From: Eledone cirrhosa
Taxonomy: Eukaryota
DNA length: 64,000 nucleotides
Reading direction: 5' to 3'
NCBI GenBank assembly: GCA_964016885.1
Contig: OZ024746.1
Location: forward strand, 8,680,001 to 8,744,000
The position numbers and the translations under genes are program-made. Under the pieces are notes generated by a model. It was given only the letters and a program-made list of their open reading frames with translations. It ran no database searches and was not told the origin of the DNA. This document shows positions 10,391 through 59,804 of the stretch, one piece after another. Numbering within the stretch: position 1 is the first letter of the stretch; every line of letters begins with the position of its first letter.

Positions 10391-10394
<4 letters not shown>

Positions 10395-10585
10395 CGAAGG
10401 AGTTGTGGTAAGGAACCAGATGGACCATAACGCACCAGAGTACTCAATACTTAAGGTAGTAGAGTGGGTAATAGGGAAATGTATGACCCCGACGGCAGAG
10501 CTCAAGCCGTTTCGACGGCTATTTCTGGACTGAAATAGCTGTCGAAACGGCTTGAGCTCTGCCGTCTGGGTCATACATTTTCCTA
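10391..10585. mobile_element. Fold-back cassette family A in (TA)n (putative Penelope-like terminus, HHR 3' half)
   Basis: Long arm plus a shorter inverted arm around gacggctatttc-TGGACT-gaaatagctgtc. Each arm reads GAAA-cggc...gccg-TC outward. Homologous copies at 21435, 21611, 37759, 57361 and 59616. Confidence 0.75.
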
Positions 10586-10761
10586 TATATATATAAATAT
10601 GTGTGTATATATACGAATACATTTACGCACACACGTACACACACTTACATATACACTCATATACATACACATACATGCACACAAACACGCACACACACAC
10701 ACATATATATGTATATATATATATATACATACATATATATATATATATATGTGTGTCTCAT

Positions 10762-21577: not shown

Positions 21578-21611
<34 letters not shown>

Positions 21612-21796
21612 AAGGAATTGTGGTAAGGAACCAGATGGACCATAACGCACCAGAGTACTCAATACTTAGGGTAGTAGAGTGGGAAATAGGAAAACGTATG
21701 ACCCTGACGGCAGAGCTCAAGCCGTTTCGACGGCTATTTCAGTCCAGAAATAGCCGTCGAAACGGCTTGAGCTCTGCCGTCGGGGTCATACTTTTT

Positions 21797-21800
<4 letters not shown>
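21435..21800. mobile_element. Two tandem family A cassettes separated by (TA)n
   Basis: 21435-21580 (second arm reduced to a few nt) and 21611-21800 (full fold-back, loop AGTCCA). Confidence 0.75.
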
Positions 21801-21863
<63 letters not shown>

Positions 21864-34023: not shown

Positions 34024-34184
34024 CCTCTCTCTCTATATATATATTAATTTCCCCCATAACCTTACGTTCTATTTTCCCGTTATTCTATTTCTTATCTTTA
34101 TTTGTATATTATATATCAGCCTCACTTTCAATTGTTTAGCCTTTGTTTTTAAATTCATATCTTACGTCCATATTAAATTTTACT

Positions 34185-34242
34185 TTTCATTCTGATGAGC
34201 GATTTCAGACGTCTGTCTTCGTGAAACCTTTGGTAAAGGGAA
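34185..34242 (+). ncRNA. Type I hammerhead ribozyme
   Basis: tttcatt-CTGATGA-gcga(tttcagacgtctgtct)tcgt-GAAA-cc ttt gg-TA-aagggaa. Inverted copy at 34371-34428 has a mutated core (CTTATGA). Confidence 0.7.
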
Positions 34243-34268
34243 TAATTGTCTTATGTTGTTTATTACAC

Positions 34269-34344
<76 letters not shown>

Positions 34345-34435
34345 GTGTAATAAACAACATAAGACAATTATTCCCTTTACCAAAGGTTTCACGAAGACAG
34401 ACGTCTGAAATCGCTCATAAGAATGAAAAAAAAAA

Positions 34436-34467
<32 letters not shown>

Positions 34468-36674: not shown

Positions 36675-36853
36675 CTGTAATGCGAAGAAATACCAATGAT
36701 GGCTAGTAGACAACTGATGACGGATATTCCTGGCTTCTATTTTTAATTCTTCATTTATTATATATATATAATAAATGAAGAATTAGAAATAGAAGCCAGG
36801 AATATCCGTCATCAGTTGTCTACTAGCCATCATTGGTATTTCTTCGCATTACA
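36675..36853. repeat. Near-perfect ~85-bp-arm hairpin centred on a short (TA)n
   Basis: tgtaatgcgaag...ttcatttatt (TA)n aataaatgaa...cttcgcattaca. Contains CTGATGA but no complete HHR. Confidence 0.85.
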
Positions 36854-37758: not shown

Positions 37759-37761
<3 letters not shown>

Positions 37762-37956
37762 CGAAGGAAATGTGGTAAGGAACCAGGTGGACCATAACGC
37801 ACCAAAGTACTCAATACTTGAGGTAGTAGAGTGGGTAATAGGAACCAGTAAGACCCCGACAGCTGAGCTCAAGCCGTTTCGACGGAATTAGCCGTCGAAT
37901 TAGACGGAATTAGCCGTCGAAACGGCTTGAGCTCAGCTGTCGGGGTCTTACTGGTT

Positions 37957-37960
<4 letters not shown>
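37759..37960. mobile_element. Family A fold-back cassette with scrambled/duplicated centre
   Basis: Centre reads gacggaattagccgtcgaatta-gacggaattagccgtcgaaac; (TA)n on both sides. Confidence 0.75.
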
Positions 37961-38000
<40 letters not shown>

Positions 38001-48942: not shown

Positions 48943-51900
48943 AATTGTTTCTACTTTAAGCACAAGGCCAGCAATTTGAAGGGGAGGGGAAAATCGATAA
49001 TCGATTAAATCGACATAGATATTTACTGGTACCTTATTTTCTCGATCCGTAAGGATGGAAAGGAAAGCTTACTTCGGCGGGATTTTAACACATAACATAA
49101 AGGGCCGTAACTCTGTGCCACAAAGCGTGATGTCCAACGCTCTACGAACACTGTCAATCCACCGCCCTATCATATTAGATAATAATAGAACAATGTTTAG
49201 AAGAGAGAACACATAATGAACTGAATCAATACAAGGACATTAGGAATACTTAATTCCTCCATCGATAAATGATGAAAGACAAAATAAACTGCTGTGTAAT
49301 TTGAATACAGAAAATAATTAGATAGTGTAAGTTCTGGAGCTGCAATAATATGACATCATTTATCGTGGTTATCTTATTTTTATCTTATTTTTATCTTGTA
49401 AGGAAGTAATATACATATATCACAATCTAACTAAATCAGAAACAGTAGATTTGAAATCAAAGATGTAATACCAATCTCTGTACTATTTTTATATACTAAT
49501 GAAAACAATGATGATAAGTACTTATGTCAAATTCGAGTAGCCAAACTAGAACGAATAACATTAATTCATATTTATTATGTGATTTTTATCTTTATATTTT
49601 GGATACAAACAAACATGACATTGTAATGGTAATAGAAATCAATCGTCACCTGAAGAAGTCGACAATATAAACATTATGCAGCACCCCTTACAACGCTGGT
49701 GATGACTCTGATCATTGGTCAAATAGTATTATTATTGGTGGTGAATTGGCAGTATCGGTAGAGGGTCTGACGCCATGCTTTGCAGCAAAGAGTTACGACC
49801 CTTTATGGTCTGAGTTCAAATCCCGCCGAGGTTAACTTTGCCTTTCATACTTACGGGGTTGATAAAATAAAGTACCAGTAATACACTGGGATAATTGCTG
49901 GCCTTGTGCCAAAAGTAGAAACAATTATTATATCCTATGTCAGAAGACAAAGCAAAGACTAATATTTAAAACAATTCGGGAACTTCGACATGCTAGAAAA
50001 AATGCTAAACAATTCCCCGCAAACCCTGCCTTTCTATCTTCAAAACGAAAAAAGGATATATTTGTTTCTACTTTAGGCACAAGGCCAGCAATTACCCAGT
50101 GCATTACTGGTACTTTATTTTATCGACCCCGTAAGGATGAAAGGCAAAGTCAACCTCGGCGGGATTTGAACTCAGATCGTAAAGGGACATAACTATGCTG
50201 GAAAGCATGGCGTCCGACCCTCCACCGATACTGCCAATCCACCGAAAAAAGGATATATTGGATAATGTAGTCCTTAATCCACTATCTGAAAATAAGACGA
50301 GATGGTCATAACTGGATGGCTTTGATGATATAGAGTTGCTTGATCACAGTTCACTTTGTGCTAAACAACGGTAACATAAAAAATATATTTGCAAGTTCAA
50401 AGTAATGTAATCGCCTTTTTACATCTTAACTGAAATCCAGTCAACTCTGAGGTAACCACTTCATTAAACATTCAAAAGAATTGATTAATACGATCATTAA
50501 TGTATAATAAAAGCTTTCAGTGAAGGAAATCTCGAGGAATTTATACCTAGAAAACTGTCAAACACACAATAACAAGTGAATTTTATGTGTAAACTTAAAT
50601 GATTTTGTAGATTAAATAAATTTGAGACCTACTTTTCAGGCAACGTTGTGTGTTAAAACAAAACAAATATAAACAAGTCTCCAGGTTACAAAAGTGATTA
50701 ACTGAAAAGAAAGACAAGAGCCTTAGATCATAGGTTGAGAGATTTCTTTTGTCAAATACATCGATCAAGAGGATACATTACGACCAATTTAATAAACTAA
50801 ACTAAAATAGGCCAATAAACGATTGACAGATACAAATAGATATACATTGATTAAATGTTAAATCACTTCATCACTTGGCAATAACATCTAACATCAACAT
50901 AATAAATTGTCAGTGAACACCCACACACCTCCACACACTTATACACACACACAAGCCGATACATTTATATACATCCATTTTCCTATATATAGATACATAT
51001 ACATACATACACACACACACTTACTCTCATACATATTTTTCGTAGTATTACTTTATATTGATTTCTTTTAAGATTTAAAGGTTAGCATTTATAGATGGCT
51101 TTACAAATATTACGTTTTTCCATCATTCGTATTAGATTATATATCTTTAAAATATTTCGTCTATGTTGTCCAACAAATAATATCTTCCTGTTTATCATTC
51201 ATTACTTTATATAATTAAATGACAAATGAGCTGCTTTCTATTAAAATACATTAAAACTAGACATTTATTTGAAGTTATATAAGTGTCAACAAGTTCAAGG
51301 CAGCGTTTATTAAAATGACATTAGACTAATTAAGCGATGAGAAGGAAACGCTATATTAATTAATAATGATTTCTGATTTAGGCACATGATCAATTTTTTG
51401 TGGGGAGGGGAATAATCGATTTTCTGATTTAGGCTAAAGGCCAACAATTCTTTGGAGGAGGGGAAAGTCGATTAGATTGATCACTGTACTTTACTGGTAT
51501 ATTGTTTTATCGAACCCGTAAAGCTGAAAGACAAAGCTAACCTCAGCGGGATTTGAACTCGAAACGTAAAGAGCCGTAACTCTATTCTGAAAAACATGTT
51601 TTCCGACGCTCTACCGATACTACCAATCAAGGTCCTTCTGCTATATCAATTAATAATTGTTTCTACTTTTGGCACAAGGCCAGCAATTATACCAGTGTAT
51701 TACTGGTACTTTATTTTATCGACCCTGTAAGGATGAAAGGCAAAGTTAACCTCGGCGGGATTTGAACTCAGACCATAAAGGGCTGTAACTCTGTGTTGCA
51801 AAGCAAGGCGTCAGAGCCTCCTACCGATACTACCAATCCACCGCCCTTATATCAATTAATAATAAATAATATTCTGAATATATTCAATAATTATTAGGAT

Positions 51901-52125
51901 AAGTACGGGAGACATCTTCGGATATGTTTGAATGTTGGTGGATTGGCAGTATCGGTAGAGGGTCGGACGCCATGCGTTGCAGCATAGAGTTACGCCCCTT
52001 TACGGTCTGAGTTCAAATCCAACCGAGGTTAATTTTGCCTTTCATCCTTACGGGGTCGATAAAATAAAGTACCAGTAATGCACTGGGATAATTGCTGGCC
52101 TTGTGCTAAAAGTAGAAACCATTAT
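48943..52125. mobile_element. Cluster of six SINE family 1 copies
   Basis: 48943-49167(-), 49736-49928(+), 50062-50245(-, TSD cgaaaaaaggatatat), 51420-51628(-), 51655-51846(-), 51937-52125(+). Confidence 0.85.
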
Positions 52126-53576
52126 TAGCTCATCAGCTAAGTATAGACTTCACTGTACTTGCCGATATAGGGATGAAAGTGCTATATAAACTAGGACAAA
52201 ACTTGATGAAAATTAATACTTATATCGTCATGGAAACAAATAAATATTTCCTGGTCGAAGGATTATATTATGTATAACTGTTATGGTAAGGAAAGGAATC
52301 TGTCCAGTAATATTATTACTTAAAAATACTGAAATTATAATTTGTGTGATACAAGATACATCATCATCGTCATCATCATCATAATCATCATCATCATCAT
52401 CATCATAATCATCATCATCTTTATCATCATCATTATCATCGTCATCATAATCGTATTCTTCATCTTCATCTTCCAGAGAGCCGCCACAAATACCGCAAAG
52501 CATCTTATTCGAGTTACTAACAACTCTGTTACTTCACCGCCTTATCCATTTAATAGTGAATCCCTGAATCTTAGCCTGGTTATCCAGCCTAAAAATTGCC
52601 TGTTTGTGCACGTGCATAGAAGGTAAACATAACAGGATATATGTTGGTTGGCGAAAAAATATTGAATCGATTAGACTTGTCATCTCTGTGAAAAACGGTA
52701 ATTAAGTTAGTGCTAACATAATTAATGCTGAGAGAATTAAGAGTATAATTACAAATAAATATTCAGTAAAAACAAACAGGTACAGAGGATAACTCAGGAA
52801 ATGTTTCAATCTTATTATGACCTCATTAGCGAATGTGATGGATTAAATGTTAACAGGATTTGATGATATCGAACGGATATAATTATATTATGTACACATG
52901 TTTTCATTCCTCCATTTCTCTTCCACCTCATTAAACCACATATTTATAGCAGAATGCAAAAATACATATTTATCCCTGCCTTTTTATCAATAAATAGAGA
53001 TTTATAGTTTTGAAATGAAGTATGGATCACAATTATTTCTGGATGTAGTATAATTCAAATCATCTGAGTTTGCATTCGATCATCGTTTTCAAATATGAAT
53101 TTGTTCTTCGTTCAATTATACGTTTGACCAGAAAAAAGAGAAAAAGGATATTTAATTAAATATATCACTATTTTTGTAAAAGACTTCAACGTCAAGACAT
53201 TCATTAATCATTGCCTTCAAATTTAATAATTAATCTTACTTGTGTTCGATAAACAAGTCATATATTTTACGTCTTAATTATTAAATATACGATGGGTGGT
53301 GTATTAGTAGATTGTCGTTTGGTATATGCCTTGATACATAAAATTGGTTTTCATTACTTTCTGAGTCCAAGATCGTCTGAGGTCCAATACACTTTCATTT
53401 CCCCGGTTTTCGATCAAAATAAGTAACAGTAATTATACAGTGGAATCAATCTTACTTTGCTCCTTCCATAACTGGAACTGATTATATACAAGAATCCTTT
53501 CTATATGTAATTACGTTTTGATATCTATATAAGTTAATTTATCTTTATACATACTGATGCAGTAACACGCACAAAC

Positions 53577-55622: not shown

Positions 55623-55952
55623 TATATATATATATATATATATGTAGGAGGTGAGTTTTATTGTAGTACAATAAAGCAATGCAGATATCGGATAAGAAGC
55701 ACTCTACAGTTTGTAGGACTGGAGTATACATAATATAAGATCAAAAGATGGTTAAAGGAGTTCCATGTATTTTATTATGCGCATTTCAAAAAACAAACAT
55801 CATCATGCAATAATATTTGTGTTTTCATCAGATAAAACAGGAGAACATAATATGAAGGCTAAAAAACACTTGTGGATAGTGCAGTTGTGATATGTTGATT
55901 TAAAACTGCACTATCCACAAGTGTTTTTTAGCCTTCATATCATGTTCTCCTG

Positions 55953-56019
55953 TTTTATCTGATGAAAACACAAATATTATTGCATGATGATGTTTGTTTT
56001 TGAAATGCGCATAATAAAA
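55953..56019 (+). ncRNA. Type I hammerhead ribozyme with long stem II
   Basis: ttttat-CTGATGA-aaacacaaatattattgcatgatgatgtttgttttt-GAAA-tgcgca-TA-ataaaa. Palindromic stem III. Inverted copy at 55770-55837. Confidence 0.8.
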
Positions 56020-56051
56020 TACATGGAACTCCTTTAACCATCTTTTGATCT

Positions 56052-56559: not shown

Positions 56560-56822
56560 AAGGAGTATAACGTGGAGTTACTGTAGGTTCACCCGGCTGA
56601 GCACTCGATGTTTAGGTTCACTTCTGTATCGAGGTGTAGAGCTAGGCAGAGTGTATTATAATAAAATAAAACAAGGACGAGAGGTTACTCCTTCATTACG
56701 TTTATTGGTTGGTGACGCGCGTTTCGCCACTGATCAGCTCAAGGTTCGATCTGTATCGATCTAGCCCAACTCTGTAATCCACGGCTCGTCAGACCCCTTA
56801 TAATATCATTACCATTATAAGA

Positions 56823-56907
56823 GGTCTGACGAGCCATGGATTACAGAGTCGGGTTAGATCGATACAGATCGAACCTTGAGCTGATCAGTGGCGAAACGCG
56901 CGTCACC
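56823..56907 (+). ncRNA. Type I hammerhead ribozyme with ~50-nt stem II insert
   Basis: ggt-CTGACGA-gcca...tggc-GAAA-cgcgcg-TC-acc, followed by AATAAA at 56912. Inverted copy at 56711-56795. Confidence 0.8.
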
Positions 56908-56976
56908 AACCAATAAACGTAATGAAGGAGTAACCACACGTCCTTGTTTTATTTTACTATATATATATATATATAA

Positions 56977-57273
<297 letters not shown>

Positions 57274-58212
57274 TATATATATATATATATATCACTTGTA
57301 TTTAAACACTTCAATTGGTGATTTATATTGAAATTTTAAAAACTTCATTGTAAGCCAACAAGAAATAGCCGTCGAAACGGCTTGAGCTCTGCCGTCGGAG
57401 TCATACTCTTTCCTATATATATATATATATATAGGTAGGAAAAAGCAAAGATTTCTAATTAGAAATCATGGAAGAAGAAATACAAATTCGACTCTAACTT
57501 GATTTGAACTCAGAAGGTAGAGCGATGTAATTAAATTTCACATTGTTGTCGCTTTTTCTGGTATCTGTTACTGATAGGACAAGGAAATAATTGTGCCTAA
57601 CAAAACCACAAAGCCAGAAATTTAGTAGGAGTGAGTTGATTAAATCGGCCCCCAGGACTGGACTGATACTGCCTTTTATAGACCCCGAATGGATGAAAGA
57701 TTAACTGGCTCTTGTTGGGATTTACACTTAGTACGTTAAGAACCAGAAGAAATACAGCAATACATTTTATCCAACACTCCAATATTTATGTCAAAACCCC
57801 TTTTAGAAACTTGGAAATAATGGTTGTAGAAAATAAGTAAAAAATCCTTATAAATATATATAGGATCATGTTTTTATTTCTATGCAAGAACCGTATTCTA
57901 TATCTCTTTAACAAATCAGAATATACAACTAATCGATAAGCTAAATACCCATCTCAGTTAACTGGAATCAAACGTGACGAGATCAATACTTTGTCCGTTA
58001 AGACATAACCACTTTGGTTAAAACATCGATAAGAAATGATGGTGCCCAAAGCGAGGCTGCTGTAGGTTGTGTGTTTAAGAAGTTTATAACAAACGGACTA
58101 TTATATTGAATATCGAATTAGTAACCTTAAGCAATGTTTGTAATTGATGCACCTGGTGTTTCATTGGAAAATATTCCAATAATTTCAGTTTTGCACATAT
58201 ATGTATATATAT

Positions 58213-59548: not shown

Positions 59549-59615
<67 letters not shown>

Positions 59616-59618
<3 letters not shown>

Positions 59619-59801
59619 AACCAGTAAGACCCCGACAGCTGAGCTCAAGCCGTTTCGACGGCTAATTCCAGAATTAGCCGTCGAAACGGCTTGAGCTCAG
59701 CTGTCGGGGTCTTACTGGTTCCTATTACCCACTCTACTACCTCAAGTATTGAGTACTTTGGTGCGTTATGGTCCACCTGGTTCCTTACCACATTTCCTTC
59801 G

Positions 59802-59804
<3 letters not shown>
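59616..59804. mobile_element. Family A fold-back cassette, opposite orientation
   Basis: Short arm left, long arm right, 2-nt loop (gctaattc-CA-gaattagc); (TA)n on both sides. Confidence 0.75.

What the first reader, a model, noticed from the sequence alone, without database searches (positions are those of the whole stretch)
10480..10585. Fold-back centre coincides with predicted ribozyme stem II
In all family A copies the arm reads 12-bp stem, GAAA, cggc...gccg, TC, gggg, which is HHR stem II, core, stem III, cleavage site. The CUGANGA half is never present; an inverted copy replaces it. The shared loop implies a template-encoded hairpin. Inference: cDNA snaps back on the ribozyme's own helix and self-primes second-strand synthesis, destroying the ribozyme.
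Basis: inference. Interest (0 to 1): 0.8.

Follow-up and report, generated by a model that had tools for sequence, protein, structure and literature searches.

The report
Penelope palindromes record RNA start sites
This hairpin is one of over 16,000 short head-to-head insertions left by a Penelope-type jumping gene; it likely formed when two DNA copies made from the same RNA were joined where both ran off the RNA's 5' end, not by folding back on the ribozyme's helix.

Summary
The hairpin is real. It is a short head-to-head insertion of a Hydra-clade Penelope-like retroelement in (TA)n, with at least 16,135 such loci in this 3-Gb genome. Parent copies carry the missing half with a U3-A8 core (UUGANAA; at least 1,965 copies), a different stem II and a 33-nt loop II. 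The stem II snap-back product was found 0 times. Both arms end at one site inside loop II that resembles an initiator, likely the transcription start. Either arm can reach further in (28 vs 28 of 65), 28 of 65 centres have loops of 2 nt or less, and 65 of 67 elements pair one arm ending at +61 with one tailed arm (tail end +139). Best reading (inferred): two cDNAs, primed from opposite target strands at the element's two start sites, are end-joined. A minor class is centred at the predicted cleavage site, hinting that the variant ribozyme cuts in vivo. Inverted pLTRs, tails, U3-A8 cores and a self-priming proposal are published; I did not find the junction evidence in print.

The parts
10393..10586 (.). 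Whole short head-to-head Penelope-like insertion (family A) between two (TA)n runs
   Evidence: same layout in 65 of 67 sampled fold-backs
10393..10531 (-). Long (tailed) arm: pLTR from +1 (AGTCC, inside hammerhead loop II) to +139
   Evidence: continues into 5' UTR and ORF in parent copies
10393..10470 (-). 78-nt tail, between the two inferred reverse-transcription start sites (+61 and +139)
   Evidence: 3' ends cluster at +61 and +139
10532..10586 (+). Short (tail-less) arm: pLTR from +7 to +61
10526..10531 (-). Centre TGGACT = positions +1 to +6 of the long arm, absent from the short arm; not a template-encoded loop
10533..10571 (+). Hammerhead 3' half: stem II 3' strand (10533-10543), GAAA (10544-10547), stem III with palindromic GAGCTC loop, predicted cleavage after 10566 (after 10491 on the minus-strand arm), stem I 3' strand
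   Evidence: sequence; complete type I fold in parent copy L268
21436..21579 (-). Family A single tailed arm, 5' end at about +1, no inversion
21609..21801 (.). Family A fold-back in which the tail-less arm carries the extra central bases
37760..37961 (.). Family A fold-back with a 21-nt locally templated insertion at the centre
57362..57418 (+). Family A single tail-less arm
59614..59803 (.). Family A fold-back with a 2-nt central loop

Best explanation
The hairpin is a short head-to-head insertion of a Hydra-clade Penelope-like retroelement in (TA)n, likely formed by joining two separately primed cDNAs rather than by one cDNA folding back. Inferred steps: (1) The element is transcribed from a start inside its pLTR, at an initiator-like TT-A(+1)-GTCC in loop II of its hammerhead, so this RNA lacks the ribozyme's 5' half. 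(2) The RT-endonuclease, probably as a dimer on one RNA, nicks both strands of (TA)n and primes one cDNA at +61 and the other at +139. (3) Priming in the 5' pLTR leaves only 61 or 139 nt to copy, so both cDNAs run off the RNA 5' end. (4) Their 3' ends are trimmed and end-joined through 0-2 nt microhomology, templated insertions or A-runs. Longer or read-through RNAs give the same structure with centres up to 2.2 kb upstream. RNAs cut by the ribozyme would give the rare class centred at GUC|GGGG. Shown: parentage, anatomy and junction statistics. Odds by step: Penelope origin 0.97; variant hammerhead in parent 0.85; two cDNAs 0.7; +1 is the transcription start 0.65; in vivo cleavage 0.5.
For: Parent: arm and tail continue into a UTR and an RT plus GIY-YIG-type ORF; unit 3.0-3.2 kb. 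Two 3' ends: 15 at +61 and 9 at +139 of 33 scored; one tailed and one tail-less arm in 65 of 67. Centre symmetry: tailed arm longer 28, tail-less longer 28, equal 9 of 65; 13 vs 11 among 26 elements whose arms are identical over 25 nt. In long elements L259, L262, L277, L145 and L134 the tail-less arm is longer by about 0.14-2.9 kb and holds no full internal tail, so neither arm can be a copy of the other. Central loop of 2 nt or less in 28 of 65. One element (L219) has arms from two recurrent subfamilies. 5' ends: 35 of 63 arms at -5..+8; furthest end at 6-9 nt into CTGGACT in 46 of 65; single arms end at the same site; A/T runs on both arms. TTTAGTCCA in 85 of 103 parent-type copies. PMC11167929 (sections read): a purified PLE protein nicks and extends both strands, starts RT at two internal sites that bound the tail, and is predicted to be a dimer. 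PMC2377424 (passages): Penelope has an internal promoter.
Against: No RNA data, so the start site rests on cDNA ends and a motif match (initiator consensus recalled, not from a call). A small hairpin in loop II has its 3' strand at the same place, so an RT stall is possible. The arms share a subfamily in 34 of 36 (random 0.29) and 61 of 68 (random 0.15), which snap-back predicts as well. Later flipping of the spacer by recombination between arms would mimic both the 28:28 symmetry and the long-element cases. PMC11167929 saw no strand difference in start site in vitro, whereas here the two sites are used one each. 50 of the 67 sampled fold-backs came from a pattern limited to spacers of 26 nt or less.
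Confidence: 0.6

Rival explanations
1. One cDNA runs to the RNA 5' end, snaps back on chance microhomology and primes its own second strand; spacers were later flipped or shortened in the genome.
For: Arms nearly always share a subfamily. The commonest single junction (6-nt loop, 7 of 65) fits a hairpin. Self-priming was proposed for PLE palindromes in PMC3846280 (passages).
Against: Needs flipping to saturation for 55-bp arms, in young copies and across 2-kb spacers. 28 of 65 loops are 2 nt or less. L219 has mixed arms. Long tail-less arms suggest +61 is a real priming site.
Confidence: 0.2
2. One reading: cDNA snaps back on hammerhead stem II and destroys the ribozyme.
For: The centre does lie within the stem II/loop II domain of the parent. 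Stem III-centred minis exist (22 of 50 listed).
Against: Predicted product 0 hits and 0 of 50 listed. The left arm is the exact complement of the right arm, not the parent's 5' strand. Other families mostly keep the ribozyme (48 of 58). Family A copies with a full ribozyme fold back at 51-2,178 bp upstream (19 pairs among the first 100 hits).
Confidence: 0.03
3. The +1 hot spot is an RT stall or RNA break at the small hairpin in loop II, not a transcription start (compatible with either joining model).
For: An 8-bp hairpin ending at TTTAGTCC is predicted in parent copies.
Against: Arms end 6-9 nt in, past the hairpin base. The hairpin is weak in the AATT subfamily, which has the same hot spot. 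RT has already passed stems III and II by then.
Confidence: 0.12
4. The short palindromes replicate as a unit of their own (MITE-like or as a non-autonomous master), so the centre is inherited.
For: High copy number; some junctions recur; the common junction creates a TCAGTC that could act as a start site.
Against: Junctions vary within every subfamily and recur across subfamilies. The ends are unequal (tail on one arm only). The same layout holds in full-length copies.
Confidence: 0.05

Closest known systems
Hydra clade of C-terminal-endonuclease Penelope-like elements (Craig et al. 2021, PMC8557442; section 11 and passages read)
   Same: RW(R/K), DKT, CxCx5C linker, no CCHH, CxxC before E, CxH after N, (TA)n targets, inverted 5'-truncated copy, tail at one end.
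   Different: Unit 3.0-3.2 kb (described as generally under 3 kb); tail 78 nt (30-40 bp described for PLEs); hammerhead is U3-A8 with a long branched loop II, not canonical; short palindromic copies far outnumber long ones.
Poseidon PLE of Anolis studied in vitro (Frangieh et al. 2024, PMC11167929; parts 1-2 of 4 read)
   Same: Two internal RT start sites bounding the tail; both target strands nicked and extended; AT-rich target; ribozyme not needed for insertion.
   Different: Other clade; the parts read do not explain the inverted copy and saw no RNA ends at the cleavage site; here the two sites are used one per arm.
U3-A8 hammerheads of Cercyon PLEs (Cervera and de la Pena 2014, PMC4209133; parts 1-2 of 4 read)
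   Same: U3-A8 core in a pLTR, palindromic loop III, pairs of ribozymes on opposite strands 100-700 bp apart.
   Different: Here stem III has 4-5 bp, loop II has 33 nt with an inner hairpin, there is no extra base before G10.1, and a C3-A8 subfamily exists.
Self-priming proposal for head-to-head PLE palindromes (Arkhipova et al. 2013, PMC3846280; passages read)
   Same: Palindromes at inverted junctions, tail on one inverted pLTR, initiator-like motif in the pLTR.
   Different: Proposes self-priming on an antisense template; the junction statistics here favour two joined cDNAs.
LINE-1 twin priming (passages in 10.1101/2024.12.14.628481; original model recalled)
   Same: Both target ends prime cDNA and the products are joined by microhomology.
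   Different: L1 twin priming copies non-overlapping parts of the RNA and gives an inversion; here both cDNAs copy the same stretch and give a palindrome.

Membership tests
Penelope-like element (EN+) | Single ORF with RT and C-terminal GIY-YIG endonuclease | tested here: met
   YRDD-type and VIY...YIG motifs in that order in broken copies. By motif only: Pfam gave no RT or GIY-YIG hit for 3 fragments.
Penelope-like element (EN+) | pLTRs, inverted 5'-truncated copy, tail at one end | tested here: met
Hydra clade | RWK-type motif and DKT | tested here: met
   14 and 13 matches in 20 loci
Hydra clade | CxCx5C linker, no CCHH, CxxC and CxH around the conserved E and N | tested here: met
Hydra clade | Insertion in (TA)n | tested here: met
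Hydra clade | Canonical hammerhead in the pLTR | tested here: not met
   U3-A8 in 70 and C3-A8 in 27 of 103 copies, C3-G8 in 0; 9 C3-G8 copies genome-wide
Hydra clade | Placement in the RT tree | not tested
   no reference proteins were fetched
Type I hammerhead ribozyme (parent copy) | Core 3-9 with a 3-8 pair and free position 7, GAAA, UH triplet | tested here: met
   positions 4, 5, 6, 8, 9 kept in 99-102 of 103; position 7 is A 33, C 25, G 42, T 3; U3-A8 is a natural active covariation (PMC3088659, passage); the C3-A8 subfamily breaks the pair
Type I hammerhead ribozyme (parent copy) | Three stems around the core | tested here: inconclusive
   L268 centroid gives the three-way junction (z -3.3), but L262 and L305 fold no better than shuffles (z -1.4, -1.0); stem II has a 2x1 loop after G10.1-C11.1; no Rfam hammerhead hit
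Type I hammerhead ribozyme (parent copy) | Self-cleavage | not testable with these tools
   indirect only: arm ends peak at the predicted site
Type I hammerhead ribozyme (window copy) | 5' half of core and stems I and II | tested here: not met
   absent; no Rfam hammerhead hit in the window

The most novel reading that the evidence does not exclude
Penelope inverted repeats are made by a dimeric RT-endonuclease that primes two cDNAs from opposite target strands at the element's two start sites and end-joins them. The thousands of palindrome centres are then a fossil 5'-end map: a major peak at a transcription start buried in the ribozyme's loop II, which splits the ribozyme so that the mRNA cannot cut itself, and a minor peak at the cleavage site that shows in vivo cutting by a U3-A8 hammerhead.
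Probability: 0.4. Interest if true: 0.75.

Novelty: new variant of a known kind. Interest (0 to 1): 0.55.

Why it matters
How PLEs form their inverted repeats and tails, and whether their hammerheads cut in vivo, are described as open in PMC8557442 and PMC11167929. This family supplies over 16,000 natural junctions that distinguish self-priming from two-cDNA joining. It names exact sites to test (+1, +42, +61, +139) and gives genomic hints of in vivo cleavage by a non-canonical PLE hammerhead.

Tried and rejected
CTGANGA within 22 nt of the 3' strand: 30 hits, none a parent; most are junction inserts, and one (L073) led to the ORF. Rfam: no hammerhead in the window or in parent copy L268. Pfam: no informative hit. 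Cap-derived C at arm ends: inconclusive in family A (first base A 24, G 11, C 9); two family F centres show an extra C. An extended stem I does not visibly covary with the hypervariable 3' strand. Motif tallies cross-matched between families and were redone per cluster; family E was mis-specified there and redone (8 of 8), giving 48 of 58. Assembly artefact rejected: arms differ by substitutions, one arm is tailed, and both ends sit in (TA)n. Earlier scan notes: none found. Prior art for two-cDNA joining in PLEs was not found in searches; subscription papers are not searched and supplements were not read.

Full report
Observation. The hairpin at 10475-10586 is real (z = -20.9). It is part of a 194-bp element (10393-10586) lying between two (TA)n runs: a long arm with a 78-nt tail, a 6-nt centre and a short arm. 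The window holds four such fold-backs and two single arms. The window lies in a 3.0-Gb genome where an exact pattern finds 16,135 fold-backs with spacers of 0-26 nt and 1,628 with spacers of 27-57 nt. Rfam finds no hammerhead in the window.

Parent. A looser search gave 30 hits; in one (L073) the tail continues into a UTR and an ORF. That stretch retrieved long copies (40 scored of 1,049 candidates) with an RT followed by a VIY...YIG endonuclease, a 3.0-3.2-kb unit, direct pLTRs and often an inverted 5' copy. Individual copies show RW(R/K), DKT, CxCx5C, no CCHH, CxxC before E and CxH after N. These are the features given for the Hydra clade in PMC8557442 section 11. Pfam did not recognise the 3 fragments tried, and no tree was built. 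Family A is therefore the 3' part of the pLTR plus the tail of a Hydra-like Penelope element.

Ribozyme. A pattern for this 5' half has 1,965 hits; a second subfamily pattern has 1,213. In 103 parent-type copies the 3-8 pair is U-A in 70, C-A in 27 and C-G in none; position 7 is free while 4, 5, 6, 8 and 9 are kept in 99-102. Only 29 copies genome-wide have G8, 9 of them with C3. U3-A8 is known in Cercyon PLEs (PMC4209133) and is an active covariation (PMC3088659). One copy folds into the type I three-way junction (z -3.3); two others fold no better than shuffles, and Rfam misses the parent. Activity is untested, and the C3-A8 subfamily spread with a broken core pair.

Test of snap-back on stem II. 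A cDNA folding on the real stem II would keep the whole loop. That product has 0 hits for the main loop variant and is absent from the 50 listed long-spacer junctions; one comes near. The 'shared loop' is bases +1 to +6 of one arm and occurs in 7 of 65 sampled elements. The sample was 17 fold-backs from 664 kb of unselected DNA plus 50 from the stretches holding the first 50 places listed; 2 of the 67 were dropped for lacking exactly one tail, and 37 fold-backs from selected sets were left out. Among the first 100 full-ribozyme hits, 19 inverted pairs have centres 51-2,178 bp upstream of the core. In ten other families with the same short-arm, long-arm, (TA)n layout, 48 of 58 fold-backs keep a full core plus GAAA in at least one arm, at family-specific distances from the centre. 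Inversion does not depend on stem II.

What fixes the centre. Arm 5' ends cluster at one site, AGTCC in loop II: 35 of 63 arms lie at -5..+8, the further arm ends 6-9 nt in for 46 of 65, and single non-inverted arms end there too. The context TTTAGTCCA is kept in 85 of 103 parents and fits the initiator consensus (recalled). Several junctions carry A/T runs on both arms or locally templated insertions. Penelope has an internal promoter (PMC2377424). I infer a transcription start inside the ribozyme. An RT stall at a small hairpin in loop II is the rival. No RNA data could be brought to bear.

One cDNA or two. The 3' ends fall at +61 and +139 (15 and 9 of 33), one of each in 65 of 67 elements. 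This matches the two RT start sites that bound the tail in vitro, where both target strands are nicked and extended by a predicted dimer (PMC11167929). If the short arm were copied from the long one, it could never reach further in. It does so in 28 of 65, against 28 for the long arm, and 11 vs 13 in copies with identical arms. In five long elements the tail-less arm is 0.14-2.9 kb longer and holds no full tail; in L260, L264 and L295 the tailed arm is the longer. Central loops are 2 nt or less in 28 of 65, too tight for an intramolecular primer. Against this: arms share a subfamily in 34 of 36 and 61 of 68, which needs one RNA or one source locus; only L219 is clearly mixed; and later flipping of the spacer would mimic the symmetry. 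I put two joined cDNAs at 0.7.

Minor classes. For the ATTT subfamilies, 185 mini fold-backs have centres within 30 nt between the stem I 3' strands. Of the 50 listed, tallied by eye, 22 are centred on stem III, 10 on the GAGCTC palindrome with no loop (3 of them tandem repeats of one another), 10 have at least one arm starting exactly at the first base after the predicted cleavage, and 8 are other. The first two classes can arise at birth by annealing or later by deletion between direct repeats. In the narrower search, both arms start at that base in 10 of 18 (2 ambiguous by one base) and at least one arm does in 14 of 18, often with non-templated spacers. This suggests ribozyme-cut RNAs served as templates; a stall at the base of stem III is the alternative. 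The class is rare: 1 of 63 unselected arms.

Comparison with what is known. Inverted 5' copies and one-sided tails are standard PLE features (PMC8557442). Twin priming is known for LINE-1 but copies non-overlapping RNA parts. Searches found no paper with junction evidence for two-cDNA joining in PLEs or a start site inside the ribozyme; subscription papers are not covered and supplements of PMC8557442 and PMC4209133, which list ribozymes by family, were not read.

Verdict. Observation partly confirmed; stem II snap-back not supported. The element is a variant of a known kind. Its value is a large natural data set bearing on an open step of the Penelope cycle. Interest 0.55.

Noticed in passing
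window 56657-56961: Fold-back of another PLE-like family with a complete CUGACGA hammerhead (long loop II) in both arms; centre about 16 nt upstream of the core.
   Followed up: partly
window 55789-56050: Fold-back of family F with a complete CUGAUGA hammerhead; centres in this family cluster 63-72 nt upstream of the core, and two carry an extra C that may copy the cap.
   Followed up: partly
window 34170-34443 and 36676-36853: Tail-to-tail pairs around a (TA)n centre, the opposite orientation to family A; the first has a CUGAUGA...GAAA motif.
   Followed up: no
window 57118-57275: Short fold-back of another family centred on a self-complementary AATT stretch, lacking the core's 5' half.
   Followed up: partly
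L279-L307, about 1470-1490: A successful subfamily has C3-A8 with G7 (CUGAGAA); the ribozyme is either dead or uses a shifted register.
   Followed up: partly
parent pLTR +46..+57 (e.g. L266:840-860): The stretch just before the +61 end is hypervariable between subfamilies while its flanks are fixed.
   Followed up: no
G000:C6 about 8759530-8759690 (L087): Three head-to-tail 47-nt repeats of an older family A variant that restart near +6 after the cleavage-site region.
   Followed up: no
window 51480-52127: Large inverted pair of a different repeat with tRNA-like promoter-box motifs (recalled), possibly SINE-related.
   Followed up: no
L032-L036, L040, L041: An unrelated repeat with coding-like sequence, possibly a LINE, that matches CTGACGA by chance.
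   Followed up: no
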